Assembly: GCA_043778225.1 (NCBI GenBank)
Contig: JAYWGM010000025.1
Location: forward strand, 1-35,895
Length of the DNA: 35,895 nt
Source of the DNA: Deinococcales bacterium
GTDB taxonomy: Bacteria; Deinococcota; Deinococci; Deinococcales; JAAFIG01
Direction of reading: 5' to 3'
Position 1 is the stretch's first letter. Each line of letters opens with the position of its first letter. A model generated the notes under the pieces. That model was not told the origin of the DNA and made no database searches. It worked only from the letters and a program-made list of their open reading frames with translations. Made by a program: the position numbers and the translations under genes. Shown in pieces: positions 303 to 35,745 of the stretch.

Positions 303-340
303 AAACAAAAAACCCCTTGAGTGACCGACTCGAGGGGTTT
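303..340 (-). terminator. Intrinsic terminator of the acyl-CoA dehydrogenase gene
   Basis: Hairpin AAACCCCTTGAGT-GACCG-ACTCGAGGGGTTT with an A-run at 303-312 (U-tract on the minus strand), about 15 nt past the stop codon. Confidence 0.8.
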
Positions 341-354
341 CTCAAAACCATTGC

Positions 355-2136
355 TTACTTGAGTGGGTAGCCATCCGCCTCGAGAACGGCGGCTGCCACC
401 TCACGGCGCAACTGAATAATGTTGACCGCCTCGGTTTTAGTAAAGCGCCGTAAAGCTGCCATGGTCATGCGGAAATCGTCGCCAGACAGGAAACTCGAGA
501 TGGCTTCACGTCCACTGCTCATGGCTTTATCGGCGGCTTGGGCGACCAGAATTTGTGCCATGGCGGTTGCAATTTTTGCATCCTTGCCGCTTTGGACAAT
601 TTTTTGGGCGCGAACCACAGCGCTTTCGGCAACATAGGCATGGATAATCATGTCAGCAGTTCGCATCATGGTTTCTTGTTGTTCGCCAAGTTTTGTGCCA
701 AATTTTTGGGCTGCACTGCCAGCCACCGCTAAAGCTGCCTTTTTGAGGTTTGCCACAACTTTGGTCTCGCTTGCTAAAGGTGCATCGGATTCGTCAAGGT
801 CAAAGCTCGGCTCGAGCAATTCGGCTTGGAGTTTTTGGGCGGCTTGGAGCAAAGGCAATTCGCCTTTGAGCGCCATTTTCAGTAACTCGCCCGGAATCAG
901 CATTCGGTTGATTTCGTTTGTGCCTTCAAAGATGCGGTTAATCCGAGCATCACGGTAGGCTCGAGCCATTGGGTACTCTTCGGAATAACCAAATCCGCCA
1001 AAGACCTGTAAGCCCTCGTCGGCACACATCGAAAGCACTTCGGTCGCAAAAACTTTAACCATGCTGGCTTCAACACGGTGCGTTTCGATCGCTTTAAGTT
1101 TATCCATGCCTTTTTCGACGGCAGCATCTATTGCGCCAGTCACACGGTAGGTAATTGTTTCGGCAGCAAAAATACTGGCTGCCATTTGCCCTAATTTCTC
1201 GAGAATCGCGCCGTAGCTGGCAATCGGCTTACCAAAACTATGGCGTTCTTTGGCGTATTTGGCAGAATGCTCGAGAATCACTTTACTGCCACCCGCCCCA
1301 CCCGAACCGAGCTTATAACGACCCATATTGAGGATATTAAAAGCAATTTTTGCGCCCCAGCCGACTTCGCCCAGTAAGTTTGCCACGGGAACTTTGACAT
1401 CCTCGAGAATTAATTGGGTGGTGCTGCTGAGTTTAATGCCAAGTTTTTCTTCTTCTTTGCCAAGACTGACCCCAGCAAAAGCGCGTTCAACCAAAAACGC
1501 GCTAAATTTATTGCCTTCGGGGGTTGGAACATGGGCAAAAACCGTAAACATATCGGCAATACCGCCGTTGGAAATCCACATTTTTGTACCACTCAAAAGA
1601 TAATGGCTACCATCTTCGGACAGCACGGCTTTGGCTTTGGCGGCTTGGGCATCCGAGCCAGACCCCGGTTCGGACAGACAGTACGCGCCAATCAGTTTAC
1701 CGTTTGCCATGTCTGGCAAGTATTTTTCTTTGGTTGCTTGGCTGCCAAAATAAACCAACGGTAACATTCCGATGCTGGCATGAGCGCCAAACGAAACCGC
1801 AAAACCGCCACCTCGAGAGAGCGCTTCGCCAACGTAGCAAGCTAGGGTTTTAGAAAGGTCAAGCCCACCGAATTCCTCGGGGACTTCGAGCAGAAAAAAG
1901 CCTTGCTCGCCGCATTCATGCAGGATTTTTTTGAGCAGGTCGTTGTTGTGATGCTCTAAGGTTTCCTGGTTGGCAACCACTCGAGCCTTGACAAATTCTT
2001 CGACGGCGCGAAACATCTCGCGCATATCTGGGGTGAAATCCTCTGGGGTGTAGACATCGGCGTGGGTAGCAGCTTCTAAAAGAAATGTCCCACCGGGTTT
2101 GACAGTCTTTATGGCTTCTGGGCGTTCAGCAATCAT
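355..2136 (-). CDS. fadE: Acyl-CoA dehydrogenase, long FadE/ACAD9-VLCAD-like form
   Basis: AYCLSEPGSGSDA, GTKMWISNG, QVFGGFGY and RINRIFEGTNEINR motifs plus C-terminal extension; GGAGG RBS upstream. Confidence 0.93.
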   Translation of the reverse strand: MIAERPEAIKTVKPGGTFLLEAATHADVYTPEDFTPDMREMFRAVEEFVKARVVANQETLEHHNNDLLKKILHECGEQGFFLLEVPEEFGGLDLSKTLACYVGEALSRGGGFAVSFGAHASIGMLPLVYFGSQATKEKYLPDMANGKLIGAYCLSEPGSGSDAQAAKAKAVLSEDGSHYLLSGTKMWISNGGIADMFTVFAHVPTPEGNKFSAFLVERAFAGVSLGKEEEKLGIKLSSTTQLILEDVKVPVANLLGEVGWGAKIAFNILNMGRYKLGSGGAGGSKVILEHSAKYAKERHSFGKPIASYGAILEKLGQMAASIFAAETITYRVTGAIDAAVEKGMDKLKAIETHRVEASMVKVFATEVLSMCADEGLQVFGGFGYSEEYPMARAYRDARINRIFEGTNEINRMLIPGELLKMALKGELPLLQAAQKLQAELLEPSFDLDESDAPLASETKVVANLKKAALAVAGSAAQKFGTKLGEQQETMMRTADMIIHAYVAESAVVRAQKIVQSGKDAKIATAMAQILVAQAADKAMSSGREAISSFLSGDDFRMTMAALRRFTKTEAVNIIQLRREVAAAVLEADGYPLK

Positions 2137-2222
2137 ACAAAACCTCCGTGCCTCGAGACAATCGCGTCAAACTCGAGGACAAATTGAAATTCTTGTACTT
2201 AGTCTAACAAAATTTTGGAGCT

Positions 2223-2290
2223 TCGTAAAGTATCAAAATCGTTTCATCGTAACGTATCAAAATCGTTTCATCGTAACGTATCAAAATCGT
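2223..2290. repeat. Tandem repeat, 24-bp unit GTATCAAAATCGTTTCATCGTAAC, about 2.8 copies
   Basis: Exact units at 2230-2253 and 2254-2277, partial copies at 2278-2290 and 2223-2229. Confidence 0.92.
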
Positions 2291-2339
2291 CAGGATTTTA
2301 TTTTGGATACTTGGTCTTTTTTCACGGTAGAATCAAGCC

Positions 2340-3083
2340 ATGAGACAATCACGAAAAATTTTAGTGACGGGTGCTTCACGCGGTCTTGGTCAAGCCATCG
2401 CGCTCGAGCTTGGCAAACTTGGTCATAGCATTGCAGTCCATTATGGGCGTTCAAGCAGCGAAGCCGAAAATGTAGCTGAGCAAATCCGTGCCAATGGCGG
2501 GCAAGCGGTCTTGATTCAAGGCGATTTATCGAGTCTCGAGGGTGCAAAAGCCGTGGCGCTGGCAGCTACCCAAGCGCTGGGTGGTCTCGAGGTGCTGGTC
2601 AATAACGCTGGGATTACCAAGGATGGCTTGGTGATGCGAATGAAGGATGAGGATTGGGAGGCGGTCTTGGACACCAATTTATCAGCGCCGTTTGCTTTAA
2701 TTCGTGGGGTCATTCGTGGAATGCTAAACGCCAAATGGGGACGGATTGTCAATGTCTCGAGTGTGGTCGGCTTAATGGGCAACCCCGGGCAAGCCAATTA
2801 TATTGCCGCTAAAGCTGGTTTGATTGGCTTAACCAAAGCCATTGCCAAAGAATACGGCGCGAAAGGAATTACCTGTAATGCGGTTGCGCCGGGCTTTATC
2901 GAGTCGGACATGACCAAAAAATTACCCGAAGCCCTGAAAAATAAGTACCTCGAGAGCATTCCGGCTGGGCGTTTTGGGCAACCCGAGGACGTGGCAGCCG
3001 TGATTGCCTTTTTGGTTTCGGATGGGGCAGCTTATGTCAATGGGCAAACAATTGCCGTGGATGGTGGCTTGTACGCTCATTGA
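2340..3083 (+). CDS. fabG: 3-oxoacyl-ACP reductase
   Basis: TGASRGLG, NNAGITKDGLVMRM, GNPGQANYIAAKAG (YxxxK) and VAPGFIESDMT; TAGAAT box 6 nt before the ATG. Confidence 0.93.
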   Translation: MRQSRKILVTGASRGLGQAIALELGKLGHSIAVHYGRSSSEAENVAEQIRANGGQAVLIQGDLSSLEGAKAVALAATQALGGLEVLVNNAGITKDGLVMRMKDEDWEAVLDTNLSAPFALIRGVIRGMLNAKWGRIVNVSSVVGLMGNPGQANYIAAKAGLIGLTKAIAKEYGAKGITCNAVAPGFIESDMTKKLPEALKNKYLESIPAGRFGQPEDVAAVIAFLVSDGAAYVNGQTIAVDGGLYAH

Positions 3084-3095
3084 TGCGGCATACGC

Positions 3096-6000
3096 TCATT
3101 GACGGTTTGTCTGCTCAAAAGCCCGCAGTTCGTCAAGGACATGGGTCATTTGGATTTTTCCACTGATGCGCTCGGCGATTTGTAAAATCAGGTTGGCATC
3201 GGCTTCGCTAAACGCATAAGTCTCGGTAGACTCGAGGTTAATTACGCCCAGCACTTGTTTTTGGTTAGTAATCGGCACACAGAGTTCGCTCTGAATTTTT
3301 CCAGACAGATGCACAAAATCGGGTTCAAGACTGGCATCGTTAATCAGCATGACTTGGTTATTTTTAATACTGCGAACCATCACGCCGCGTCCGCTCATGG
3401 CATGAGCAGCAATCGTGTGCTGATAGCCAACCGCGTGTTGCAGCACCAATTGGTCTTGCTCGAGCAGATAGATACTGACCATCGGGACTTCGAGGGTTTG
3501 GCTGATGCTGACCACAATATCTTGAATCAGTTTTTGGGTGGTATCCGCAAAAGATGCCGCATTGCGAATCGTATCAATCAGTTCTAAGCGCTTGGTTTGG
3601 GCATAGCTTTGTTCGTACAATTCGCGGTACTGATTTTCGGACTCGGCTAAAGCACGCCTTTGTTCTGCCTCGAGTCTTTTTTGCTCGAGTTCGGCGCTGA
3701 TGTCGCGCAAAAGAATAATCGAACCCTTAAAAATTTCTTGCTCGAGCCGTGGATAAGACCTGCCTTCAAGGCTGATGATTGAGCCATCAATGCGCTTGAC
3801 CCCAAAACGGTAAGTGCGGGTTTGCCCTTGGTGGATAAATTGTCTTTCGGCAATCAGCGCTTCTAAGTCTTCGGGAATCACCCAAGTAAAGACGGGCAGC
3901 CCAATCATCGCTTGGCTCGAGCCACAACCCAGCAGTTCGACTGCGCCGGGGTTGGCATACTCGACGATACTTTCGGGGCTGACAAACAACAAACCTTCGG
4001 TGATTGCATTGGCAACCAAAGTCACGGTACGGCTTTCGCGTTCAAGGGCGCGGCGGGCTTGGTGGGTGGCTTGCTCGAGCGCAAGCTGCTCGCTGATGTC
4101 ATAAATTGTGGCAATTGTGCCTTGCCATTGTCCATGCGAGTCATAGCGCGGCGAGCCATAACCTTCGATAAAGACACTATGACCATCTTTATGAAGGATG
4201 CGATAGCGGTATGCTCCCGCTTGTCCAGAGCGTCGTTCTGACAGCGCAAGCTCGAGCAATTGATGATCATCGGGATGAATCAGTGCCGAGGGGTGTTTGC
4301 TTTGTAAATCTTCTAAGGTATAACCAAATAATTTGGTAAAAGCTGGATTGATGTATTCAAAACGTAAATCGCTGTTGGTCACCACCAAACCCGCTTGTAA
4401 ACCATTGGTAATCGAGAGGGCATAATCACGTTCTTGTTCGATTTTTTGCTCGAGTACCAGCAAAGAGGAAGTGACTTTACTGGTAAATTCGTTTTCGGCT
4501 TGGAGTTGCCTTTGAATTTTGCTGATTTCTGCGCCATGTTTTACTTCAAGGCTGATGTCACGGATAAAACCAATTCCACCACCAACCAAGTTGCCATGGC
4601 GGTCATGGCGTGGGTAGCCGGTCACTTCGATCGGCAATTGACTGCCATCCTTGTGAATTGCCGTATAGCGATTGACTGTGCGCCAGCCTTCGTTGCGTTC
4701 TTGAAGGGCGGCTTTGACTTCTTCGGTATTGATCACCAAATCGGTTGGGCTGAGTCCAATCAGTTCTTCGGGTTCATAGCCAAGCATTCTGGCATAGACT
4801 GGGCTGACATATTCAAAAACGCCTGCTTCGTTGTTGACCGTTACACCTTGTTCGATCGTCTCGAGAACCATTTGGGCAAAGGCTTGTTGTTGCGCTAATT
4901 CGGTTTGGGTATGCAGCAGGGCTTCTTGGGTCTGACGTTTCTCGAGGGTCGTCTGATTGATGTCGCTGGTATCAATCACGACTGCATTTGCTCCAACAAA
5001 GACTCCTGCTTGAAGAATCGGTCGGATAAAAACCTCGACCGTAAAATCTCTAAAATCAAATGAAGCATTAAATTCGTCGCCAGCCAAGGCACTTTCAATT
5101 AGGTTGGCAATAATTGGGTCATCAAAGACTTCTAGTAAAGGTGTACCAAGTAAATTCTGCGCCATCGCTTCGCCACCAAAGTGTTTGACCCCCTTGCCCT
5201 CGAGCAGCGTCAGGCAGCCATTGGTATCAATCGCAATTGCCAGAATCGGCAAGGAATCGAGCAATTGTTCGATTCGCCGTGAAGCCTCGAGCAAGGCTTG
5301 TTGTGACCCCACACGCTCGGTCACATTTAAGGCAATCGCAATTGTGCCAGTCTGTTGGTCTTGCTCAATGATTGGCTTGACCCACGCATCAAAAGTTTGG
5401 TCGCGCCACTGCACCAATTGATTGACGGTTTTACCTTGGCTGGCTTGACTAAACATCGCCAAGGCTTCGGGGGCTTCGGTCAGGTCTTTGGCGAGGCTGT
5501 TACCGACTTGCGCCCGATGTCCTCCAATGGCTAGGGCATTTCGGACTTGATTGAGTGCGCCACCATGAATACTGGTGATTTGCCCGTTCATATCGGCTTT
5601 GACCAGCAATAACGGCAACTGACTAATCACCAATTCAAGGTCGCTCTGAACCCGCTCGAGTTGCTGTTTGGTTTCGACTTGCTGACTGATGTCCACCGCT
5701 AAAACATTGCAGCCCGCAATTCTGCTGTTTGCAAGCAGTGGCACAACCCAAATTTCATATTTGTGATTGCGCCACGAAATCGTCGTGTGGGTGGCTTGTC
5801 CGTGCAATGCCTGATAGACAATTTGTTGAATTTCGGACTGGTCAGCAAAAATTTCGGAGATTGTTAGACCAAGTAAATCATCGCTGCCACGCTGAAAATT
5901 TTTGAGCAAATTGCCTTCGATAAAAGTCAGCACAGCTTTGGTATCGGTCTGTAAAAATAACATCGGTAAATGCTGCACCAAACTCTGAAAACGTTCAATT

Positions 6001-6893
6001 GTGACATTGCGGGCGGGGTCTGCCGATAAACCACTGAACTCGAGAATTCCACTGACCTCACCAGCCGCATTGTAAATCGCTTGGAGGCTCGAGCGGACTT
6101 GAATCCGAAATCCAGACTGGTGCAAGCGAGTGACCAAATGCGGGGCAACTGGTTTATGGGCTAACCTTTGCACCAAACGCAAAAAAGACGCTTGGTCATC
6201 GTTTGGAATCAGCACCGTGATGGATTGCCCAAGCATTTTCTGGCTCGAGAAACCATAGGTCGCTTCTGCGCCTGTGTTCCAAGCAAAAATTTTACCACTT
6301 GGGTCAAAAGCCACAACACTTTCTTTGGCTTGCATCACCGCATCCTCGAGTAGCGAAGCGGTGGTGCTGGGCTTTTCTTGCTGACTGAGGCTTAAAGCGG
6401 TATTGATGCTTTTCATGGCAAGGTTAGCAATACCTGTCAGTAACTCGAGTTGTGGTGTTTCTAGGCTGTGTGCTTGTTGGTCTAAAATCAGGATTGACCC
6501 CATCACATGACCAGAATGAGACCACAATGGAATACTGACCACAAACTGGTAGTTCTCTATTCCCAAAAAGGCTTCGATGTTGCAAACCACGCTTGGCTCG
6601 CTCGAGTGGCTTATTTTGGCAGGGGCAAACCAAGTAAAATCTTTTGGTAAACTCCGCGCCAGTTGTTCTGAACCTAAGCCGTGGGTGGTGATTAAACGCA
6701 CACTGTTGCTCGAGACCCAGCAGACCGCCGCGACTTTTGCGCCAATCGCATGGCTTGCCAGTTCAGCAGCTTGTTGCAAAGTGCTGCTGGCAAGTTGCCG
6801 AACTGGGGCGTATTCGGTCAGCATATCGGCTTTTAACCAAGGGTTAAAGACCTTATTTGATTGGCTGGTTTTGATTTGAATACGCTCATTCAT
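3096..6893 (-). CDS. Cytoplasmic multi-sensor protein: GAF, about 7 PAS/PAC domains, C-terminal GAF, no recognisable output domain
   Basis: PAS signatures (WNTGAEATYGFS, YVSPVYARMLGYEPEELIG, YINPAFTKLFGYTLEDL, YANPGAVELLG); GAF signatures (SIPLWSHSGHVMGSILILD, SELCVPITNQKQVLGVINLES); GGGAGA RBS. Confidence 0.88.
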   Translation of the reverse strand: MNERIQIKTSQSNKVFNPWLKADMLTEYAPVRQLASSTLQQAAELASHAIGAKVAAVCWVSSNSVRLITTHGLGSEQLARSLPKDFTWFAPAKISHSSEPSVVCNIEAFLGIENYQFVVSIPLWSHSGHVMGSILILDQQAHSLETPQLELLTGIANLAMKSINTALSLSQQEKPSTTASLLEDAVMQAKESVVAFDPSGKIFAWNTGAEATYGFSSQKMLGQSITVLIPNDDQASFLRLVQRLAHKPVAPHLVTRLHQSGFRIQVRSSLQAIYNAAGEVSGILEFSGLSADPARNVTIERFQSLVQHLPMLFLQTDTKAVLTFIEGNLLKNFQRGSDDLLGLTISEIFADQSEIQQIVYQALHGQATHTTISWRNHKYEIWVVPLLANSRIAGCNVLAVDISQQVETKQQLERVQSDLELVISQLPLLLVKADMNGQITSIHGGALNQVRNALAIGGHRAQVGNSLAKDLTEAPEALAMFSQASQGKTVNQLVQWRDQTFDAWVKPIIEQDQQTGTIAIALNVTERVGSQQALLEASRRIEQLLDSLPILAIAIDTNGCLTLLEGKGVKHFGGEAMAQNLLGTPLLEVFDDPIIANLIESALAGDEFNASFDFRDFTVEVFIRPILQAGVFVGANAVVIDTSDINQTTLEKRQTQEALLHTQTELAQQQAFAQMVLETIEQGVTVNNEAGVFEYVSPVYARMLGYEPEELIGLSPTDLVINTEEVKAALQERNEGWRTVNRYTAIHKDGSQLPIEVTGYPRHDRHGNLVGGGIGFIRDISLEVKHGAEISKIQRQLQAENEFTSKVTSSLLVLEQKIEQERDYALSITNGLQAGLVVTNSDLRFEYINPAFTKLFGYTLEDLQSKHPSALIHPDDHQLLELALSERRSGQAGAYRYRILHKDGHSVFIEGYGSPRYDSHGQWQGTIATIYDISEQLALEQATHQARRALERESRTVTLVANAITEGLLFVSPESIVEYANPGAVELLGCGSSQAMIGLPVFTWVIPEDLEALIAERQFIHQGQTRTYRFGVKRIDGSIISLEGRSYPRLEQEIFKGSIILLRDISAELEQKRLEAEQRRALAESENQYRELYEQSYAQTKRLELIDTIRNAASFADTTQKLIQDIVVSISQTLEVPMVSIYLLEQDQLVLQHAVGYQHTIAAHAMSGRGVMVRSIKNNQVMLINDASLEPDFVHLSGKIQSELCVPITNQKQVLGVINLESTETYAFSEADANLILQIAERISGKIQMTHVLDELRAFEQTNRQ

Positions 6894-7033
6894 ACATTTC
6901 TCCCGAATCGGGGTTTATTAGAACAATCTTTAGTTCACAAATAACTGACGCGACTTACAAAAGTATGACACAGTGTCGGGCTTTTGGTTTTTAGAGTTTA
7001 AGACGAATGCGTTTTGATAAGAACCAACCAAGG

Positions 7034-7092
7034 TATGGGCAGTAACCAATCCAGCTATGGGCAGTAACCAATCCAGCTATGGGCAGTAACCA
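7034..7092. repeat. Tandem repeat, 22-bp unit TATGGGCAGTAACCAATCCAGC, about 2.7 copies
   Basis: Units start at 7034, 7056 and 7078. Confidence 0.92.
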
Positions 7093-7114
7093 CTCAATCT
7101 GGTAGGCTAAAGGT

Positions 7115-7870
7115 ATGAATGAAACAAAACCCAACAATCCTTGGGGAATTGCGATTGTGATGCTGATTGTCGGCTTCTTTGCGGGCTTATTGGCTGCGCC
7201 GCGCTCTGCGCCAGTGGTTGCCAACCCCTCAGCCTCGAGTAGCCTTGACCTGAGTGGTAAAGCTCCAATTGTCCTCAATCTCGAGCAGAACGGGCAAAAA
7301 AGCCAGATTGTCGGTAATCCACTGCTTGCCGATGCCAGCAGTGGCGCAACCTATATTTTAGGGCAAGCCAGCGCCAAAGTGACGATGATTGAATTTGGCG
7401 ATTATCGCTGTGGCTACTGCCGTTTATTTACCACCCAGACTTTTCCTAAAATTTTAGAGCAGTATGTTAAAACTGGTAAAATTCGCTATATCTACCGCGA
7501 TACGGTCAGTGTTGGCGGCGAACAAACCGTGACGGTCTCGAGTGTCGCGGCTTGCGCCAATGAACAAGGTAAATTCTGGGATTTTCATGCCATGGCACAC
7601 AATAATCTCGAGACTTGGGGCAATGCCAATGGCACAGAACTGATCAGTACCCTGACACAAATGAGTCAGCAAATTGGGATCAATGGTACGACCTTACAAA
7701 GTTGTGTCTCGAGCAACCACCATGCCACAAGACTCAAAACCGACATCGAACTGGCACAGCGCTTTGGGGTCACGGGGACACCTTCGTTTGTGATTAACGG
7801 CTACTTTTTTAGTGGGGCATTACCTTTTGAGGTCTACCAAAAGATTTTTGAATCTTTTGGTGTGGTCTAG
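7115..7870 (+). CDS. Membrane-anchored DsbA/BdbD-family thiol:disulfide oxidoreductase
   Basis: N-terminal hydrophobic helix, EFGDYRCGYC (CxxC) and GVTGTPSF cis-Pro loop; TAGGCT box 6 nt upstream. Confidence 0.88.
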   Translation: MNETKPNNPWGIAIVMLIVGFFAGLLAAPRSAPVVANPSASSSLDLSGKAPIVLNLEQNGQKSQIVGNPLLADASSGATYILGQASAKVTMIEFGDYRCGYCRLFTTQTFPKILEQYVKTGKIRYIYRDTVSVGGEQTVTVSSVAACANEQGKFWDFHAMAHNNLETWGNANGTELISTLTQMSQQIGINGTTLQSCVSSNHHATRLKTDIELAQRFGVTGTPSFVINGYFFSGALPFEVYQKIFESFGVV

Positions 7871-7958
7871 CAGGTTATTCAACAAAGAGAAAAGACTAAG
7901 CTGTACGGTTTCTCGAGGATGGCTAAAGTGTCTTTGCAAATCTTGGTATAATTTTTTT

Positions 7959-8336
7959 ATGAAAGCTGCTTGGATTATCTTGAGTACCGCCGTTGGGATT
8001 GGTTTTGGCTATGCAACTTTGGGTGTACTTTCGCTGCTTGGCACAACCCAACTCGGTTGGCAACTGTGGTGGCTCGAGCCGAGCGTTGGGCTGGGTGCAG
8101 GGCTGGTGTGTTTTGCAATCTGCCAAAAGGCGGCGGGTCAGCCAAGCCAAGCCCATAACCGAGGCGAACGGGCGATTTGGCGTTTGGCATACCGCCGAGG
8201 CTGGGAACTGAGTTTAGAGCAAATTTTAGCCGAAACGATGCTCGAGGAAAGCGCGGCTCGATCCACGCTCCAAAACCTCGAGCAAAAAGGACAAGCCGTG
8301 CTGACTGCTCCTAACAAATGGCGGTTACAAACATAA
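7959..8336 (+). CDS. Hypothetical membrane protein (2 TM plus possible winged-helix C-terminus)
   Basis: Start moved to ATG 7959 (TATAAT at 7947-7952, 6 nt upstream); two hydrophobic segments, then LSLEQILAETMLEESAARSTLQNLEQKG. Confidence 0.7.
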   Translation: MKAAWIILSTAVGIGFGYATLGVLSLLGTTQLGWQLWWLEPSVGLGAGLVCFAICQKAAGQPSQAHNRGERAIWRLAYRRGWELSLEQILAETMLEESAARSTLQNLEQKGQAVLTAPNKWRLQT

Positions 8337-8362
8337 AATATCAATGTGCTATATTCTCGGAC

Positions 8363-8611
8363 ATGAGTTTGCTCGAGTTAAAAAATCAGGCATTGCAATT
8401 ATCGTTTCACGAACGAGCCGCTTTAATGCGTGACTTAAAAAAGTCTTTATCGGAAGCTGAACTCGATGCGCTACTTCTTGAGGAATCCCTGACTCGTTTG
8501 ACCGAGTTGAAAAACGGTACTGTGCAACGTGTTTCTGGAAACAAGTGGTATCAACGTGGCAAAAATGCTGCGTTGAGCCTTTCATCCTCATGCAATCACA
8601 CAAATGCTTAA
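8363..8611 (+). CDS. Addiction-module antitoxin (TIGR02574-like), C-terminus probably frameshifted
   Basis: MSLLELKNQALQLSFHERAALMRDLKKSL...EESLTRLTELKNGTVQ fits the family pattern; TATATT box 7 nt upstream; directly precedes a RelE/ParE gene. Confidence 0.72.
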   Translation: MSLLELKNQALQLSFHERAALMRDLKKSLSEAELDALLLEESLTRLTELKNGTVQRVSGNKWYQRGKNAALSLSSSCNHTNA

Positions 8612-8879
8612 AGCTGAGGATTACTTTGAGCGTATCCATGCCAAATTAGCCTTACAATTTCGGGAAGCCATAAATCTCGAGATTGAAACATTGCTTGAAT
8701 TCCCCGAATCTGCGCCAGTGGTACATCCACGCGGTTTAAGACGGCGGCTATTAACTGGTTTTAAGTTTAAGATCATTTATATCATCTATATCATCGAAGA
8801 GGAACTTGGCTTGCTCACCATTTTATCGGTGCGGCATACGAGTCAAGCTGATGAGTTCTTAGACCAGTTGCTCGATTAA
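8565..8879 (+). pseudogene. RelE/ParE-family toxin with an interrupted N-terminus (intact ORF only 8604-8879)
   Basis: In-frame MLR*AFHPHAITQMLKAEDYFE with TGA at 8574-8576; FHPxA, FPES, RRRLL and ILSVRH ParE-like motifs; 9-bp duplication giving IIYIIYII. Confidence 0.62.
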
Positions 8880-8895
8880 GTTGTAAAATAATTTT

Positions 8896-9639: not shown

Positions 9640-9658
9640 AATGCTAATCTGAGCAACT

Positions 9659-10129
9659 ATGGATAAGGATTACCAAACGTGGGATGGAATTACTGACCAA
9701 GTGAATGCTTTAGCAGCCAAGCTCCAAGACGAGCAATTTGACCTGATGATGGTCATTACAAGAGGCGGCATGATTCCGGGCGCGGTACTTGGCTATCGGC
9801 TGGGAATTCGCAACATTGTCGTGGCGGCGGTCGAATTTTATGATGACCGAACGGGCGCTCGAGGGGTGCATCCAACTTTTTTGCAGTTTCCAGCCGATCC
9901 TATATTGACTGGTAAACGGGTACTGATTGTCGATGAAGTCTGGGATTCTGGGCGCACGATTCAAGCTGTGGCAACCCGAGTTCATCAGGCGGGTGGTGTG
10001 CCAATCACGGCGGTGCTGCATTACAAACCTCGGATGTCCGAAACTGCCCTAGAACCCGATTATTATGTCTTGGCAACCAATGCTTGGATTGTTTATCCGT
10101 GGTCAAGGCACGAAAAACTCGATGCGTAA
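9659..10129 (+). CDS. Type I phosphoribosyltransferase (xanthine/hypoxanthine PRT-like)
   Basis: ITRGGMIPG, VLIVDEVWDSGRT PRPP loop and WIVYPW. Confidence 0.88.
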   Translation: MDKDYQTWDGITDQVNALAAKLQDEQFDLMMVITRGGMIPGAVLGYRLGIRNIVVAAVEFYDDRTGARGVHPTFLQFPADPILTGKRVLIVDEVWDSGRTIQAVATRVHQAGGVPITAVLHYKPRMSETALEPDYYVLATNAWIVYPWSRHEKLDA

Positions 10130-10186
10130 AATTTGTCCTCATCTCAAAACCATCTCAATCCCATCGGCTCGAGAAAGAATAAAAAA

Positions 10187-11209
10187 ATGCAAAACACTTG
10201 GACTGCTTTTACAAAGGCGGCACTCAGTCAAGCCAAACTCGAGGGTTTAGCCTTCTCGAGCCACACCAAGCTCGAGATTTCTGGGCAGGGTAGCCTCGAG
10301 ACACAGATATTGGAAAATCCTTTCAAGCGCTGTGTGATTTCTTGGAATGCCCTTACCCCCGACGACTCAGGCTTGCTGCTCGAGGCTCGGGTGCGCTTTG
10401 GGCAGCGCTGGTCGAAGTATTTACGGATTGCCCAATGGAGCAATAATCCACTCGCCAATACTTCGTTTGAGGATTCAGACCAAGGGGTGCTGCTCGAGAC
10501 CGACACGATTATTTGCAAAAATTCTGCCGATGCCTTACAGCTTCGGGTGACGCTGCGCGGACAGGCGGTTTTGACGGGTTTAGCAGCGACTTTTACCGAT
10601 GACACAAGCCCAACGCTTGGCGCGGCTTCTGACCAAAAAGCGTGGGGTCTGGAGTTGGCTGTGCCACAGCATTCACAGATGATTTATCCCAAAGGTGGTC
10701 AGGTCTGGTGCAGCCCAACCAGCACCACGATGTTGCTCGAGTATTGGGCAAATAAACTCGGGCTGCCACTGGCAGATACTGTGCCGAAAGCTGCCCAAGC
10801 TGTCTGGGATGTGGCATACAACGGCGCGGGTAATTGGGCATTCAATATGGCATATGTTGGTGCTAAGGGCTTGCAGGGTTTTGTGGCACACTTGGGCAGT
10901 TTTGCGGCTGCCGAAGCCTATCTTGCCAACGGAATCCCAATTGCGCTTTCGATTGGTTGGGAAGACGGTACGCTTGATGGTGCGCCAATTGGGCATTCGC
11001 ATGGGCATTTGGTGGTGCTGCGTGGCTTTACTCCCACCGGCGACCCGATTATCAACGACCCAGCCCACCCATCTGACCAAGCCGTGCGGGTGATTTATAA
11101 GCGTGACCAACTCGAGCGAGCTTGGTTGCTGCACAGTGGTGGAATTGTGTACATTGTGCAACCAAACAACTATACTTTTCTTGATGCTCACCCAAATACA
11201 GCAAATTAA
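10187..11209 (+). CDS. Peptidase C39-like protein with an N-terminal beta-rich domain
   Basis: HSQM...WCSPTS (Gln/Cys), GHLVV (His) and IINDP (Asp); ATG 10187 preferred over TTG 10133. Confidence 0.82.
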   Translation: MQNTWTAFTKAALSQAKLEGLAFSSHTKLEISGQGSLETQILENPFKRCVISWNALTPDDSGLLLEARVRFGQRWSKYLRIAQWSNNPLANTSFEDSDQGVLLETDTIICKNSADALQLRVTLRGQAVLTGLAATFTDDTSPTLGAASDQKAWGLELAVPQHSQMIYPKGGQVWCSPTSTTMLLEYWANKLGLPLADTVPKAAQAVWDVAYNGAGNWAFNMAYVGAKGLQGFVAHLGSFAAAEAYLANGIPIALSIGWEDGTLDGAPIGHSHGHLVVLRGFTPTGDPIINDPAHPSDQAVRVIYKRDQLERAWLLHSGGIVYIVQPNNYTFLDAHPNTAN

Positions 11210-11213
11210 ATTG

Positions 11214-11528: not shown

Positions 11529-11534
11529 TTTGAG

Positions 11535-13661: not shown

Positions 13662-13670
13662 AGCTACAGT

Positions 13671-17591: not shown

Positions 17592-17592
17592 T

Positions 17593-25992: not shown

Positions 25993-26376
25993 TTAGGTGG
26001 CAATTTCCCAAATATGACCGCTTGGGTCGGCAAAACTAATGGTGCGAACCCCCCAAGGTCGGTTGATTGGACCGTTTAAGAACGTCACACCTCGAGCTAC
26101 TAAATCCAGATAAGTCGCATCCACATCTTCAACATTGATGGTCAACATCATCCTCGAGCCAGACTCGAGGTTTGCCACTTTTGCAGGTGCAATCAGTTCA
26201 TGCGCCTCCGAAATTTTGAGGACATTAATGACCATATTTTGAAACTTAAAAACGACTGAGTTTTCATCTTCAAAAACCACAGCTAATTCAAAGACTTTTT
26301 GGTAAAACTGCTTAGAGGCGGCTAAGTCCTCAACAAATAGCGTGATGGTGTTGACGTTCCAGTTGCTCATGGTCAT
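25993..26376 (-). CDS. VOC/glyoxalase-bleomycin resistance family protein
   Basis: ITLFVEDLAASKQFY, VEDVDA and PWGVRTISFADPSGHIWEI. Confidence 0.9.
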   Translation of the reverse strand: MTMSNWNVNTITLFVEDLAASKQFYQKVFELAVVFEDENSVVFKFQNMVINVLKISEAHELIAPAKVANLESGSRMMLTINVEDVDATYLDLVARGVTFLNGPINRPWGVRTISFADPSGHIWEIAT

Positions 26377-30281: not shown

Positions 30282-30608
30282 TTGGAAAACCTGACAGAAA
30301 TGTTAAAAGGCGTACTCGAGGGCTGCGTACTCGAGATTGTCAGTCGCGGAGAAACCTACGGCTATGAAATTGCATCAACCTTACGCACACTAGGCTTTAC
30401 GGATGTCGTCGAAGGTACGGTTTACACGATTCTCGTGCGGCTTGAAAAAAATAAGCTCGTTCACATCGAGATAAAACCATCCACTAAGGGTCCGCCCAGA
30501 AAGTTTTATTCGCTCAACGAGGCTGGTTATACCGAACTGGCGATGTTCTGGGCAAGATGGAACTTTCTTTCACTCAAACTTGGTGAACTAAAAGGAGAAA
30601 GCAAATGA
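30282..30608 (+). CDS. PadR-family regulator
   Basis: MLKGVLEGCVL, YGYEI, EGTVYTILVRLEK and GPPRKFY; AAGGAGG RBS with TTG start. Confidence 0.92.
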   Translation: MENLTEMLKGVLEGCVLEIVSRGETYGYEIASTLRTLGFTDVVEGTVYTILVRLEKNKLVHIEIKPSTKGPPRKFYSLNEAGYTELAMFWARWNFLSLKLGELKGESK

Positions 30609-30946
30609 CTAATTTCCTAACTAAAATCATCGGAGATAAAAAAGAATGGAACAAAATGCAGGCGCGTGCCAAGGCATTACCACGCGACTATCAAATTGTT
30701 TACAGCGAAATTCAAAAATATATGTGGCAGCTTACGGGTGGCGACGGTATGGATATTATCGCCATCCTCAAAGACTTGCTTGGACTGTTTGAATCTGGTG
30801 CAGCCGATGGTAAGCAGGCACTAGAAATCACTGGTGAGGATATTGCTGCGTTCTGCGACGAGCTTTTGCGAAATGCCAAGACATTTACCGAAAACTGGCG
30901 TGAGAAGTTAAACCGCGACGTGATCAAGAAGCTCCGAGACATCTAA
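30605..30946 (+). CDS. DUF1048-family protein
   Basis: KKEW...ARAKALPRDY, LLGLFESGAADG and ITGEDIAAFCDEL; typical PadR partner. Confidence 0.85.
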   Translation: MTNFLTKIIGDKKEWNKMQARAKALPRDYQIVYSEIQKYMWQLTGGDGMDIIAILKDLLGLFESGAADGKQALEITGEDIAAFCDELLRNAKTFTENWREKLNRDVIKKLRDI

Positions 30947-30973
30947 AAGCACAGTAGCTAAAAACATATTTGG

Positions 30974-30997
30974 TTCACAAAGCGCTTTGTGAATTTT
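30974..30997 (+). terminator. Perfect 20-bp palindrome followed by TTTT (terminator or operator)
   Basis: TTCACAAAGCGCTTTGTGAA at 30974-30993. Confidence 0.4.
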
Positions 30998-31092
30998 GGG
31001 TTACTTATTCAAAAATAACACTTCAGAAATGCCAACCGCATTTCGCACCTAAACCATTCTCGAATTCGCTCGAGCAATAAGGAGAAAACCCC

Positions 31093-33685: not shown

Positions 33686-33856
33686 ATGCGAACCATCCCC
33701 GTTATCGGCAGTTTTATCTTGTTGCTATCCAGTTTATTCGTGGCAATAAATTTGCAAAAACCACTGGCAGGACTGATTATCTTGTGTCTTAGTTTACTGA
33801 CATTATGGCTCGAGGTCAGTCGTTCAGGTTCAATAAAGGAGAGGTATGTTCGCTAA
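33686..33856 (+). CDS. Small 56-aa two-helix membrane protein (not in the ORF track)
   Basis: GAGGTGA RBS; MRTIPVIGSFILLLSSLFVAINLQKPLAGLIILCLSLLTLWLEVSRSGSIKERYVR*; overlaps the USP start. Confidence 0.6.
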   Translation: MRTIPVIGSFILLLSSLFVAINLQKPLAGLIILCLSLLTLWLEVSRSGSIKERYVR

Positions 33857-34793
33857 AGTCTGTATTCCTATTACCAACGAATCTCTATCCATTCATGCGG
33901 CTCGAGCCGCACTGGACTTTGCCCATAAACTCGGTGCTAAGGCTGTATTTGTTTCGGTTTTTAGTATGCCAATTATTTACCGTTCTCAAAGCGAAGATGA
34001 TGTGCGCTTAGAATTGCAAAAAACCACCGAAGCCTTTCTCGAGACATGGATTGAATTTGCCGAGCATCGTAAAGTACCTGTCAGTATCGTTGCGATCGAA
34101 GCTCGAGACTCAGGCATTGCACAAACCATCGCCGAAACTGCCTTGCAAGAACACTGCGACCTGATTGCCATGGGAACACACGCTTATGAAGGCATCAACC
34201 GCTTGTTGCTCGGCAGTGTAGCTGAGGCAGTCACACGCCATTCGCATTTGCCAGTGATGCTCTTCCATTTGGGTCTTGTGCCGACCGCTAAACCATTTGA
34301 ATGCACAAGAATTTTGGTGGCAGTGGACGGCAGTGCTGCTACCAACGAAGCCTTGGATGTGACTCGAGCTTTAGCCAAGCAATTATCTGCCCATGTCGAA
34401 GTGCTGCACGTAATTCCAGATGTCCCAATTGTTTATGACACGATCATGCCAAGTATAGATTACTCAAAACTTGCTACCGATTACATGAACAAAGGCAAAC
34501 AAATTCTCTACAACGCCGAAGCCAAACTGGATGTGAGCAACAAAGAACTGGTTCTCGAGCCAGCCCACCGCCGCCGCATTGCCGATGTGATTCTGGGGAT
34601 TGCCAAAACCCATCATGCCGATTTAATTGTCCTTGGCACACATGGTTATGGTGGTTTAGACCGAATTTTACTTGGAAGCGTGGCACAAGCTGTGGCGCAC
34701 CATGCTCATGTGCCAGTCTTACTGACTCGAGCCGTAGAGCGCGAAAAAAGTCTGGAAGCCACCAATACTGCTTTTACAAGTCTTGCCATTTAA
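33846..34793 (+). CDS. Tandem universal stress protein
   Basis: Two USP domains (DLIAMGTHA...LLGSVAE; ILVAVDGS...DLIVLGTHG...LGSVAQ). Confidence 0.93.
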   Translation: MFAKVCIPITNESLSIHAARAALDFAHKLGAKAVFVSVFSMPIIYRSQSEDDVRLELQKTTEAFLETWIEFAEHRKVPVSIVAIEARDSGIAQTIAETALQEHCDLIAMGTHAYEGINRLLLGSVAEAVTRHSHLPVMLFHLGLVPTAKPFECTRILVAVDGSAATNEALDVTRALAKQLSAHVEVLHVIPDVPIVYDTIMPSIDYSKLATDYMNKGKQILYNAEAKLDVSNKELVLEPAHRRRIADVILGIAKTHHADLIVLGTHGYGGLDRILLGSVAQAVAHHAHVPVLLTRAVEREKSLEATNTAFTSLAI

Positions 34794-34839
34794 GGCTCAA
34801 GCAATAGAACATCGAGCTTGCATAACCACTGGTAAGAAA

Positions 34840-35676
34840 CTAAGCCAAACCAACACTCGAGAAACTTTCATTGGCTGTCAACCTCATTGGTTGGCGGCTA
34901 CATATTTTTTCACCACTTTTGATGCGTTCAGCAAGCTCTAAGGTTTCAGGCATCGGTGAATCCTCGAGTTCGACCTGTAAAAAATGAATAAAGCGTCGGT
35001 AATGCTCGATCGCAACGTATTTATCCTCGACCACCGATAGGCAGGTCATGAGTTTTTGATGGTGATTTTCGCCAATATACGGGTCTAGGTGTAGGGCTAT
35101 ACCTAAAGCACTGACCGCTTTGGCACACGCCCCAGTTCCACAGTGCAGCAAAGAAATCTCGAGGTTGGCACGAACATAAACCCCACGCAGTTGCTCACGC
35201 AGTTCATTTGCCCAAGTCGCCGTGATATTCGGCAAAAAATCGCCTTGGTAAAGTGCAACAACACGCCCAAAGGCTTGCAGACGCAGTTCTTTATTTGGGG
35301 CGTGGTCAGCTTCTTCTAGGGTCTGATACAGTTGGTGTAGGTCTGTGGCAGCCAGTACGGTAGCGTTTAAGCAGTAACGATTATTTTTCTCGAGCAGTGC
35401 AGTATTATGCCCAAGCGCCTGACGAATACGGTGGACTGTAACCCGAAAACGGTTGTTACTTTCTTTGTTTGGCTCGGTTTGCCAAAGTTGCTCGAGAATT
35501 TCTTCTTTTTGCTTACCATTGGGATGAGCCAATAAGTAAAAAAAGAGTTCTTCGGCAGTTTTACTCTTAAATTGGGCTGTATGGTTATTGACCAGCACAT
35601 GGTATCCACCAAGTGTCGCAATCTCAAGAAGCGGGCAAGCCTCGAGAACTTGTTGCCCTGTGCGACCTTGACCCAT
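34840..35676 (-). CDS. SARP/AfsR-type regulator (winged helix plus BTAD)
   Basis: TLGG, ELFFYLLAH, LW...FRVTVHRIRQAL, LYQGDFLP and LDPYIGENHHQKLM; AAGGAGA RBS. Confidence 0.88.
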   Translation of the reverse strand: MGQGRTGQQVLEACPLLEIATLGGYHVLVNNHTAQFKSKTAEELFFYLLAHPNGKQKEEILEQLWQTEPNKESNNRFRVTVHRIRQALGHNTALLEKNNRYCLNATVLAATDLHQLYQTLEEADHAPNKELRLQAFGRVVALYQGDFLPNITATWANELREQLRGVYVRANLEISLLHCGTGACAKAVSALGIALHLDPYIGENHHQKLMTCLSVVEDKYVAIEHYRRFIHFLQVELEDSPMPETLELAERIKSGEKICSRQPMRLTANESFSSVGLA

Positions 35677-35695
35677 TTGTTCTCCTTGACATCAC

Positions 35696-35745
35696 ACAAA
35701 AACCCAAATTCTCGAGTAGGCGCGACTCGAGTGAATTTGGGTTTT
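35696..35745. terminator. Long hairpin built on two CTCGAG sites, possible bidirectional terminator
   Basis: AAAACCCAAATT-CTCGAGT-aggcgcg-ACTCGAG-tg-AATTTGGGTTTT. Confidence 0.6.

What the first reader, a model, noticed from the sequence alone, without database searches (positions are those of the whole stretch)
329..35731. CTCGAG is a highly iterated palindrome (about 1 per 160 bp)
Seen: about 220-225 CTCGAG copies by hand count versus roughly 9 expected for a random hexamer in 35.9 kb, about 25-fold. It occurs in almost every gene and in all three frames (Leu-Glu, Ser-Ser/Arg, x-Arg via CGA), so codon or amino-acid bias alone does not explain it. Established: restriction sites are usually avoided, whereas cyanobacterial HIP1 (GCGATCGC) is a methylase-linked, genome-wide iterated palindrome of unresolved function. 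From memory, to be verified, CTCGAG is also enriched and methylated by an orphan MTase in Meiothermus. Inference: a HIP1-analogous system in this lineage, with an orphan CTCGAG methyltransferase plus methyl-directed repair that creates sites, or a DNA-binding/chromosome-organisation role.
Basis: partly seen in the sequence, partly recalled or inferred. Interest (0 to 1): 0.8.

Follow-up and report, generated by a model that had tools for sequence, protein, structure and literature searches.

The report
Hyper-abundant CTCGAG palindrome in Deinococcales
One six-letter palindrome, CTCGAG, sits about every 160 bases in this uncultured Deinococcus relative, inside and between genes, and is kept by a pressure on the DNA word itself, much like the still unexplained HIP1 word of cyanobacteria.

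Summary
The window holds 225 CTCGAG (first 329, last 35726-35731) against 4.3 expected. The genome holds 24,877, one per 162 bp, and CTCGAG is its commonest hexamer.

The excess is not codon usage: synonymous shuffles give 9 times fewer. It is not a sub-word effect or a longer repeat. Density is equal in genes and spacers, all three reading registers are used, and the Leu-Glu dipeptide is 2.3-fold over-represented. Sites are conserved 2-3 times better than other hexamers.

All 19 genomes of the family carry the excess. Weaker excesses occur in some genera of two sister families, and one genus avoids the word.

- No DNA methyltransferase orthogroup is shared across the family.
- I found no XhoI-type nuclease and no Vsr.
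- The T-containing neighbour words are not depleted.
- There is no clustering at dnaA.

My best reading is a whole-word, per-site DNA-level bias read by an unidentified, vertically inherited factor. The leading candidate, at about 0.35, is a self-DNA tag in DNA uptake and recombination, as now proposed for HIP1.

This scan has already reported the same word on other DNA of this genome and of relatives. I found no published report of it.

The parts
329..35731 (.). 225 copies of the bare palindrome CTCGAG, mean spacing 158 bp
   Evidence: 225 against 4.31 expected; first and last site. Flanks carry at most 0.033 bit per position genome-wide.
355..2136 (-). Acyl-CoA dehydrogenase gene with 9 sites, used as the test gene for site conservation and turnover across the family
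   Evidence: Pfam. Codon alignment of 18 orthologues: 25 site positions. One is kept in 17 of 18 and one in 15 of 18. Others are clade-specific, and one is displaced by 2 bp between close relatives.
10238..10300 (.). Four sites within 63 bp of one gene, three read as Leu-Glu and one as Ser-Ser
   Evidence: sites at 10238, 10255, 10271, 10295; translation ...KLEGLAFSSHTKLEISGQGSLE....
30336..31068 (.). Longest site-free stretch of the window (733 bp between sites at 30330 and 31069)
   Evidence: By comparison, the genome has only 19 gaps over 1,500 bp, most of them with low G+C.
26153..26169 (.). Two sites 11 bp apart, an example of the rare close pairs
   Evidence: Gaps under 20 bp are 0.27-0.55 of expectation in genes.

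Best explanation
CTCGAG is a true signature word of this lineage. It is a bare six-base palindrome that has accumulated to about one copy per 160 bp everywhere in long-resident DNA.

Shown:
- The pressure acts on the DNA word as a whole and on each site separately.
- It is equally strong in genes and spacers and uses all three reading registers.
- It is strong enough to fix 42-69% of all synonymous opportunities and to raise Leu-Glu and Ser-Ser in the proteome.
- It keeps existing sites 2-3 times better than other hexamers, while new sites still arise and old ones are lost.
- It is inherited by the whole family across a G+C range of roughly 43-62%.
- It is not tied to any conserved methyltransferase, XhoI-type nuclease or Vsr.

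Inferred: a vertically inherited protein that reads CTCGAG gives DNA carrying the word an advantage. I commit to the following mechanism at about 0.35. The word is a self-DNA tag for DNA uptake and homologous replacement. Fragments richer in CTCGAG are taken up or recombined preferentially, so any mutation that creates a site spreads and any that destroys one is replaced (molecular drive). This works without each of 25,000 sites needing its own fitness effect. The descriptive core, a DNA-level whole-word bias that is not codon usage and has no conserved cognate MTase, I hold at about 0.9.
For: Abundance and models.

Not codon usage:
- 22,250 sites in called genes against about 2,400 after synonymous shuffling and about 1,050 after whole-codon shuffling.
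- LE has O/E 2.31, the highest of all dipeptides, while EL has 0.96. 13,248 of 19,171 LE are written CTC-GAG.
- Synonymous contexts realised: 69%, 56% and 42% in the three registers.

DNA level:
- 6.17 sites per kb in genes against 6.22 outside them.
- Spacers of 20-300 bp have 6.1-8.0 per kb at G+C 0.42-0.44, which is O/E 35-44 against 26 in genes.
- The profile along genes is flat.
- Counts are Poisson-like: per-gene dispersion 1.40, and 2-kb bins of a 400-kb stretch of G013 have var/mean 1.03.

Whole-word bias: all 9 one-mismatch neighbour classes stay near compositional expectation (O/E 0.16-1.40). The three transition neighbours are the commonest, as expected for decay products of a large pool.

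Maintenance:
- The site is kept in 134 of 217 aligned cases, against 8,537 of 30,811 for any hexamer (same genus, 77.6% identity).
- Across genera the figures are 66 of 137 against 3,705 of 22,917.
- With all three amino acids identical, register CTC-GAG is kept in 55 of 70 against 2,230 of 5,909, and register xxC-TCG-AGx in 15 of 16 against 2,254 of 5,963.

Lineage:
- All 19 family genomes have one site per 147-233 bp.
- Samples of three other genera show 3.8-6.1 times the synonymous shuffle, with sites in all registers.

Foreign DNA lacks the word:
- 19 gaps over 1,500 bp, mostly at G+C 0.31-0.40.
- Genes with G+C below 0.38 have 0.91 sites per kb.
- By contrast, MTase loci that are patchy within the family carry full density (6.1-6.8 per kb). 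This fits gene flow inside the tag-sharing clade.

ComEC is present in 30 of 31 genomes searched.

HIP1 is now proposed to be an uptake signal, with methylation-dependent enhancement of transformation (PMC13756078, abstract and Discussion read).
Against: - No reader protein was identified.
- ComEC is present in every family of the order, including those without the excess, so it does not discriminate.
- Known uptake signals are 9-12 bases long, not palindromic, and occur about once per kb (recalled). This word is shorter and 6-8 times denser.
- Thermus is known for sequence-independent uptake (recalled).
- Sites in register xCT-CGA-Gxx are not kept better than background when the amino acids are conserved: 13 of 29 against 0.38, and 6 of 21 against 0.26.
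- The conservation counts pool several related genomes and are not independent.
- The MTase survey used five Pfam families in six genomes, five of them incomplete MAGs (87-94% complete). Different non-orthologous MTases could methylate the same site.
- No methylation data could be examined.
- Accessory genes at full density also fit vertical descent with loss.
Confidence: 0.35

Rival explanations
1. Binding word of an abundant, lineage-specific DNA-binding (nucleoid) protein. Many weak six-base sites spread evenly over the chromosome serve compaction or organisation and are kept by weak selection on each site.
For: - Density is uniform in genes, spacers and along genes.
- There is short-range exclusion below about 20-40 bp, the size of a protein footprint: pair correlation is 0.25 at 9 bp, 0.5 at 15 bp and about 1 from 50 bp.
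- The word is kept across a G+C range of roughly 43-62%.
- Xu et al. 2018 drew a nucleoid-structure reading for HIP1 (abstract).
Against: - There is no helical or longer periodicity in spacing.
- No significant 4-130 kb periodicity appears in 400 kb of G013: peak power is 46.0 against a null-maximum mean of 45.6.
- No candidate protein was identified.
- Selection on each of 25,000 sites separately is hard to sustain.
- The close-pair deficit may equally reflect avoidance of hairpins in mRNA.
Confidence: 0.2
2. CTCGAG is the target of an orphan methyltransferase, and the methylated word has an epigenetic, replication or repair role, with or without methyl-directed repair that creates sites.
For: - HIP1 contains the targets of two conserved orphan methyltransferases (Elhai 2015 abstract; PMC13756078).
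- An orphan CTCGAG enzyme exists in Nocardia (passages of PMC4752239).
- This genome has at least 15 MTase-like genes, some without a neighbouring nuclease gene.
- Methylation itself could not be examined.
Against: - No MTase orthogroup is shared by more than 3 of the 6 genomes compared.
- G013 (one contig) has no PF01555 hit and G010 has no PF00145 hit.
- G000 has no match to any D12-class hit of the other five genomes.
- Five candidates are high-identity orthologues in only 3 to 5 genomes each: 4 of 19 and 5, 3, 3 and 3 of 31.
- The MTase beside the only XhoI-family nuclease found in the order (G021) has no counterpart in G000.
- Vsr is found in 0 of 19 family genomes.
- T-containing neighbours are not depleted.
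- The spacers either side of dnaA have 1 site each, below the genome average.
Confidence: 0.15
3. Neutral biased repair or gene conversion that does not depend on methylation. A sequence-specific mismatch-processing enzyme converts near-cognate words to CTCGAG, and the word has no function.
For: - Density is equal in functional and non-functional DNA, and placement is Poisson-like.
- Foreign DNA lacks the word, as expected for a slow resident process.
- Sites turn over.
Against: - A mismatch-type-specific process should drain particular neighbour words. None is drained, and the transition neighbours are the commonest.
- Vsr is not found in the family.
- Xu et al. argued from site conservation against continual replenishment for HIP1 (abstract). 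The same conservation is seen here.
Confidence: 0.1
4. A Chi-like word. A palindromic signal recognised from either direction by a helicase-nuclease protects own DNA ends from degradation and promotes recombination.
For: - The word is over-represented, spread through the core genome and missing from foreign islands.
- A palindrome needs no strand polarity.
Against: - RecC (PF04257) was found in 0 of 31 genomes of the order sample.
- AddAB-type enzymes were not searched.
- Known Chi words are far less enriched (recalled).
Confidence: 0.05
5. By-product of codon, dipeptide or sub-word preferences, or of a dispersed repeat.
For: - In high-G+C sister families, most CTCGAG is CTC-GAG in frame.
- In five of the six genomes first sampled, counts are only 0.8-1.9 times the synonymous shuffle.
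Against: In this genome:
- Counts are 9.2 times the synonymous shuffle.
- Density in spacers equals that in genes.
- The reverse word GAGCTC, which uses the same codons, has 24 copies.
- Flanks carry no information.
- 68% of TCGA lie inside the word.
Confidence: 0.01

Closest known systems
HIP1 (GCGATCGC) and alternate highly iterated palindromes of cyanobacteria (Elhai 2015, PMC4390886; Xu, Lawrence and Durand 2018, PMC5861425)
   Same: - It is a palindromic word that is hyper-abundant genome-wide, in genes and spacers.
- It is not explained by codon usage.
- Sites are conserved between genomes.
- It is shared by a whole lineage and is scarce in imported DNA.
- Its function is unresolved.
   Different: - The word is different and shorter (6 against 8 bases), and it occurs in a different phylum.
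- I found no conserved cognate methyltransferases.
- No 4-130 kb periodicity was detected in the 400 kb tested.
- The proteome effect is very strong (LE O/E 2.3).
- HIP1's own core, CGATCG, is depleted here (O/E 0.20).
DNA uptake sequences (DUS of Neisseriaceae, USS of Pasteurellaceae) and the uptake-signal hypothesis for HIP1 (Rodriguez-Cruz et al. 2026, PMC13756078)
   Same: - It is a clade-specific word that accumulates in all registers of genes and in spacers.
- It changes peptides.
- It is shared by related genera.
- It is mildly enriched between convergent genes (8.0 against 6.2 per kb).
   Different: - It is six bases long and palindromic, and several times denser.
- No uptake bias is known for this group.
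- The uptake genes are not specific to the enriched lineages.
Orphan-methyltransferase motifs that cluster at replication origins (Dam GATC; CTCGAG in Nocardia; Blow et al. 2016, PMC4752239)
   Same: The hexamer is the same as in the Nocardia case.
   Different: Here the word is enriched everywhere, not clustered at dnaA. No conserved orphan enzyme was found.
XhoI-type restriction-modification (CTCGAG)
   Same: The recognition word is the same.
   Different: Restriction leads to avoidance, as seen in genus g7 of this order (37-942 copies per genome in 35 genomes). Here there is the opposite, and no PF04555 nuclease in 19 of 19 family genomes.

Membership tests
Highly iterated palindromes (HIP class, defined on cyanobacterial HIP1) | Palindromic word at least about 15-fold over-represented genome-wide | tested here: met
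   O/E is 26.7 (order 0), 47.5 (order 1) and 15.1 (order 2). CTCGAG is the commonest hexamer.
Highly iterated palindromes (HIP class, defined on cyanobacterial HIP1) | Present in coding DNA in all registers and in non-coding DNA, beyond codon usage | tested here: met
   Registers are 13,248 / 4,452 / 4,550. Counts are 9.2 times the synonymous shuffle. Density is 6.17 against 6.22 per kb, and spacers have O/E 35-44.
Highly iterated palindromes (HIP class, defined on cyanobacterial HIP1) | Sites conserved between genomes more than control words | tested here: met
   134 of 217 against 8,537 of 30,811, and 66 of 137 against 3,705 of 22,917. With amino acids fixed, 55 of 70 against 0.38. Register xCT-CGA-Gxx is only 13 of 29. 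Genomes are pooled and not independent.
Highly iterated palindromes (HIP class, defined on cyanobacterial HIP1) | Shared by a whole lineage | tested here: met
   19 of 19 family genomes in 5 genera. Weaker excess in some genera of two other families.
Highly iterated palindromes (HIP class, defined on cyanobacterial HIP1) | Conserved orphan methyltransferases whose targets lie in the word | tested here: not met
   No orthogroup spans more than 3 of 6 genomes among five Pfam MTase families. Candidates are patchy. Limits: incomplete MAGs, and no methylation data.
Highly iterated palindromes (HIP class, defined on cyanobacterial HIP1) | Periodic distribution on a 10-90 kb scale (Xu et al. 2018) | tested here: inconclusive
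   A periodogram of 2-kb bins over 400 kb of G013 has peak 46.0 against a null-maximum mean of 45.6 and 95% point of 67.0. Only one stretch was tested, with a different method from the paper.
DNA uptake sequences (DUS/USS) | Clade-specific over-represented word in genes and spacers | tested here: met
DNA uptake sequences (DUS/USS) | DNA uptake machinery present | tested here: met
   ComEC (PF03772) is present in 30 of 31 genomes, but in all five families alike. Other competence genes were not searched.
DNA uptake sequences (DUS/USS) | Preferential uptake of DNA carrying the word | not testable with these tools
   Needs an uptake or transformation assay.
DNA uptake sequences (DUS/USS) | Word of 9-12 bases, non-palindromic, about one per kb (recalled) | tested here: not met
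   Six bases, palindromic, one per 162 bp. Flanks add no information.
Very-short-patch (Dcm/Vsr-type) repair-driven word bias | Vsr endonuclease and cognate C5 methyltransferase | tested here: not met
   PF03852 is found in 0 of 19 family genomes. G010 has no PF00145 hit.
Very-short-patch (Dcm/Vsr-type) repair-driven word bias | Depletion of the T-for-C neighbour words | tested here: not met
   TTCGAG has O/E 1.39 and CTTGAG 1.40, the highest of the nine neighbour classes.
XhoI-type restriction-modification | XhoI-family nuclease with adjacent methyltransferase | tested here: not met
   PF04555 is found in 0 of 19 family genomes and in 1 of 12 others (G021). That system's MTase has only motif-level matches in G000.
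Origin-clustered orphan-MTase motif (Dam-like; Nocardia CTCGAG) | Motif clusters in the non-coding DNA at dnaA | tested here: not met
   The spacers either side of dnaA (351 and 303 bp) hold 1 site each, 2.8 and 3.3 per kb.
Chi sites | RecBCD- or AddAB-type enzyme | tested here: inconclusive
   RecC (PF04257) is found in 0 of 31 genomes. AddAB- and AdnAB-type enzymes were not searched.

The most novel reading that the evidence does not exclude
CTCGAG is a clade-wide self-DNA watermark of a branch of Deinococcales. It is read by a conserved factor that is not a methyltransferase, during DNA uptake or recombination, and has been driven to one copy per 160 bp. This would be the first highly iterated palindrome outside cyanobacteria, the shortest and densest functional genomic word known, and an independent test case for the uptake-signal theory of HIP1.
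Probability: 0.3. Interest if true: 0.85.

Novelty: new variant of a known kind. Interest (0 to 1): 0.7.

Why it matters
Highly iterated palindromes have so far been a cyanobacterial puzzle, unexplained for three decades. A second, independent case has now appeared in another phylum, with a different word and apparently without the conserved methyltransferases. It lets one ask which features of the phenomenon are essential.

The pressure is strong enough to reshape the proteome: Leu-Glu is the most over-represented dipeptide. Comparative protein analyses, codon models and gene finders for these genomes should take that into account.

The graded series within one order supplies natural contrasts for finding the responsible gene by phylogenetic correlation. 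The series runs from avoidance in one genus, through no excess, a 2-7-fold excess over synonymous shuffles, and up to 9-fold here. Several of the intermediate genomes are complete and may come from cultures where uptake, methylation and binding can be tested.

In practice, absence of the word flags imported DNA in these genomes.

Tried and rejected
- **Ribosomal RNA for naming.** There is no 16S gene in this 89%-complete assembly. The only name is 'uncultured Deinococcales', from the best related record (L001, 68% identity).
- **Cognate methyltransferase.** I tested five candidates one by one and clustered all hits of five Pfam families from six genomes. None is family-wide.
- **XhoI-type system.** The only one in the order sample is in G021. 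Its MTase has no counterpart here.
- **Vsr and RecC.** Not found.
- **Origin clustering.** Absent.
- **Spacing rules.** There is no helical or other short periodicity and no significant large-scale periodicity in 400 kb of G013. The only features are a deficit of pairs closer than about 20-40 bp and a modest excess of pairs 20-30 bp apart inside spacers: 100 against 67.7 (z 4.2) for 20-25 bp, and 80 against 62.1 (z 2.4) for 25-30 bp.
- **Doublets.** CTCGAGNCTCGAG (123 copies) has no common flanks.
- **Population variation.** Two coded runs (X1, X2) hold the window, but only as contigs identical to it. The listed differences come from other organisms' conserved genes, so no polymorphism test was possible.
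- **Phages.** It was dominated by high-G+C phages that also carry GAGCTC, so it says nothing about phages of this family.
- **Literature.** No paper was found that links CTCGAG with iterated palindromes, with over-representation in bacterial genomes, or with Deinococcota or Meiothermus. In one search only 15 of 151 papers were listed. Elhai 2015 does not mention CTCGAG, Deinococcus or Thermus.
- **Not available.** REBASE could not be consulted. The supplements of Blow et al. 2016 were not opened and may list methylomes of relatives.

Full report
**Observation.** The window holds 225 exact copies of CTCGAG. 100 dinucleotide-preserving shuffles give 4.31 +/- 2.18, and none exceeds 11. 38 of 39 called genes carry a copy. 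The three reading registers hold 116, 33 and 40 copies. Synonymous shuffles of the window's genes give 19.5 +/- 3.7 against 189 observed.

The window is contig C25 of a 4.03-Mb, 107-contig assembly with 48.7% G+C and 89% completeness. Genome-wide there are 24,877 copies, one per 162 bp, and CTCGAG is the commonest hexamer. O/E is 26.7, 47.5, 15.1, 3.6 and 1.16 under Markov orders 0 to 4, and the word ranks first at orders 1-3. The order-4 value is uninformative because the two pentamer sub-words exist almost only inside the word.

**What it is not.**
- *Not a sub-word effect.* 68% of all TCGA and 71% of all CTCG lie in CTCGAG. The next NTCGAN word has 1,454 copies.
- *Not part of a longer repeat.* Fifteen positions on either side carry at most 0.033 bit each.
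- *Not codon usage.* I used my own ORF-based gene calls (3,644 genes, 89.6% coding). Called genes hold 22,250 copies. Shuffling synonymous codons within each gene leaves about 2,400, and shuffling whole codons leaves about 1,050.
- *The same-codon control fails.* The reverse word GAGCTC, built from the same two codons, has 24 copies.

**Where the pressure acts.** Density is 6.17 per kb in genes and 6.22 per kb outside them. In spacers of 20-300 bp between called genes it is 6.29 (tandem), 6.14 (divergent) and 8.04 (convergent) per kb. These spacers have G+C of 0.42-0.44, so O/E is 35-44 against 26 in genes. The profile along genes and in flanking DNA is flat, with a small rise at 3' ends.

**Effect on proteins.** Of all peptide contexts that could encode the word synonymously, these fractions do so:

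| Context | Realised |
|---|---|
| Leu-Glu | 69% |
| [STPA]-Arg-[VADEG] | 56% |
| xxC-Ser-[Ser/Arg] | 42% |

Leu-Glu is the most over-represented dipeptide in the proteome (O/E 2.31; Glu-Leu 0.96), and Ser-Ser is at 1.57. In samples of three other genera of the family, Leu-Glu is at 2.0-2.6. In other families it is 0.95-1.67. The pressure therefore acts on DNA and is strong enough to alter proteins.

**Placement.**
- Per-gene counts are close to Poisson (dispersion 1.40).
- In a contiguous 400 kb of the one-contig relative G013, 2-kb bins have var/mean 1.03. No periodicity stands out: peak 46.0, null-maximum mean 45.6, 95% point 67.0.
- Gaps are close to exponential apart from a deficit below about 20-40 bp. 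No gap of exactly 6 occurs, since that would create GAGCTC.
- Inside spacers, pairs 20-25 bp apart are enriched (100 against 67.7, z 4.2), with a smaller excess at 25-30 bp (80 against 62.1, z 2.4). Some doublets form cores of terminator-like hairpins.
- Only 19 gaps exceed 1,500 bp (2.2 expected). Most have G+C of 0.31-0.40.
- Genes with G+C below 0.38 have 0.91 sites per kb.

Long-resident DNA is therefore saturated, and imported DNA is bare.

**Evolution.** The best related public record is labelled 'uncultured Deinococcales'. All 19 genomes of the family (5 genera) have 12,028-35,442 copies, one per 147-233 bp. Their G+C ranges from about 43-49% to about 62%.

In an 18-genome codon alignment of the acyl-CoA dehydrogenase gene there are 25 site positions. 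One is kept in 17 of 18 genomes and one in 15 of 18. Others are clade-specific, often reached through two or three base changes or amino-acid replacements. One is displaced by 2 bp between close relatives.

| Comparison (window 1-20000) | CTCGAG kept | Any hexamer kept |
|---|---|---|
| Same genus, 77.6% identity | 134 of 217 | 8,537 of 30,811 |
| Other genera | 66 of 137 | 3,705 of 22,917 |

With three consecutive amino acids identical in both genomes, the word is kept as follows:

| Register | Same genus | Other genera | All other hexamers |
|---|---|---|---|
| CTC-GAG | 55 of 70 | 29 of 37 | 0.38 / 0.26 |
| xxC-TCG-AGx | 15 of 16 | 4 of 5 | 0.38 / 0.27 |
| xCT-CGA-Gxx | 13 of 29 | 6 of 21 | 0.38 / 0.26 |

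The last register is not distinguishable from background. Where this genome has the site, a same-genus relative has it in 68 of 103 cases. Where this genome writes Leu-Glu otherwise, the relative has the site in 9 of 51 cases. These counts pool related genomes and overstate independence.

**Breadth in the order.** A survey of 151 genomes in 5 families shows a gradient.
- Genus g7 (35 genomes) avoids the word, with 37-942 copies per genome.
- Many high-G+C genomes have 2,000-4,000 copies. In five of the six genomes first sampled, nearly all are in frame and only 0.8-1.9 times the synonymous shuffle.
- Several genera of families f2 and f5 reach one per 295-650 bp, at 1.9-6.9 times the shuffle in 20-60 kb samples.

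The family of this window is therefore the extreme of a graded trait, not its only carrier.

**Test of the methylation model.**
- G000 has many MTase genes: 7 PF07669 hits over cut-off, 5 PF01555 and 5 full-length PF00145.
- An orphan-looking PF01555 gene is a high-identity orthologue in 4 of 19 family genomes.
- An orphan-looking C5 gene is so in 5 of 31 genomes.
- A TaqI-like gene is so in 3 of 31 genomes.
- Two further candidates are so in 3 of 31 each.
- G013 has no PF01555 hit and G010 has no PF00145 hit.
- Clustering all hits of PF01555, PF00145, PF07669, PF02086 and PF02384 from five other genomes covering all five genera, together with G000, gives no orthogroup in more than 3 genomes.
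- PF04555 (XhoI) is found in 0 of 19 family genomes and Vsr in 0 of 19.
- The nine one-mismatch neighbour classes have O/E of 0.16-1.40. The three transition neighbours are highest, with TTCGAG at 1.39, CCCGAG at 1.18 and CTTGAG at 1.40. This is the opposite of what very-short-patch repair produces.
- The spacers either side of dnaA hold one site each. This differs from the Nocardia orphan-CTCGAG case described by Blow et al. 2016 (passages read).

The caveats are assembly incompleteness, possible non-orthologous enzymes, and the absence of any methylation data.

**Mechanism.**

*Shown:* a whole-word, per-site, position-independent bias that is inherited vertically by the family. It is independent of the patchy restriction-modification content. 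GGCC and GATC avoidance differ between genera, while the CTCGAG excess does not.

*Inferred:* the odds in favour of the word are roughly 35-100-fold, both in spacers and in synonymous contexts. That is a weak-to-moderate bias per site, applied to tens of thousands of sites. A drive explains this more easily than selection on each site.

*Commitment:* I therefore favour a self-DNA tag in uptake or recombination, at about 0.35. This is in line with the current uptake-signal proposal for HIP1 (PMC13756078, abstract and Discussion read). It also fits the observation that accessory genes patchy within the family carry full site density while low-G+C islands carry none. ComEC is present in 30 of 31 genomes but does not discriminate.

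*Rivals:*
- a nucleoid-protein binding word (0.2);
- a methylation-linked role (0.15);
- non-methyl biased repair (0.1);
- a Chi-like word (0.05; RecC found in 0 of 31 genomes);
- a compositional by-product (0.01).

**Novelty and prior notes.** My searches found no paper on CTCGAG hyper-abundance. This scan has already described the same word on another piece of this genome (e1-2303518, later marked 'part of it fell', with no statement of which part) and on relatives.

I re-derived the counts independently. This report adds:
- the negative methyltransferase, Vsr, XhoI, RecC and origin tests;
- the neighbour-word argument;
- the Poisson placement;
- the order-wide gradient.

Noticed in passing
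whole window and genome (window has 0 GGCC, 1 GAGCTC): Nearly all other palindromic hexamers are extremely rare. About 30 of 64 have O/E of 0.05 or less (GACGTC 1 copy, GGGCCC 1, GGCGCC 3 in 4.03 Mb). GGCC has 131 copies and GATC has O/E 0.13. Many of these avoidances recur in samples of four genera of the family, while others (GGCC, GATC, CGCGCG, TGGCCA) differ by genus.
   Followed up: partly
genome-wide: The 8-base palindrome CCTCGAGG is 4-6 times rarer than other flanked forms: 243 copies against 1,117-2,203 for the other fifteen NCTCGAGN words. The three other palindromic extensions are only mildly low.
   Followed up: no
G000 contigs C65, C95, C92, C93, C99, C9, C79, C101, C41, C40, C33, C38, C2, C55 (loci L081-L098): At least 15 DNA methyltransferase-like genes, several with nuclease partners (HNH, EcoO109I-type, GmrSD, type ISP). 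Each is found in only a few related genomes. Two loci with G+C of 0.33-0.38 have few CTCGAG and look recently acquired.
   Followed up: partly
order survey, genus g7 (35 genomes): One whole genus of the same order strongly avoids CTCGAG, with 37-942 copies per 1.9-4.8 Mb. No PF04555 nuclease was found in the three members searched.
   Followed up: partly
L344 (G021:C1:68001-82000), about 6659-8835: A complete genome of a sister family carries an XhoI-family nuclease next to a PF01555 methyltransferase. Both have lower third-position G+C than their neighbours. The genome still has 3,937 CTCGAG.
   Followed up: partly
window 355-2136 (-), alignment columns 329/331: In the acyl-CoA dehydrogenase gene, this genome, G007 and G006 have the site 2 bp downstream of where three close relatives (G005, G003, G004) have it. 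The site therefore lies in a different reading register at nearly the same place.
   Followed up: no
genome-wide spacers; examples printed: Pairs of sites 20-25 bp apart are enriched inside spacers (100 against 67.7 expected). Spacers between convergent genes have the highest density (8.0 per kb). Some CTCGAGNCTCGAG doublets are cores of G+C-rich hairpins followed by T runs.
   Followed up: partly
window 8896-21164: Ordinary chromosomal content: short-chain dehydrogenases, an arsR / phosphatase / aquaporin-like arsenic cluster (11103-13080), and a urease alpha gene with accessory genes (15810-21164).
   Followed up: no
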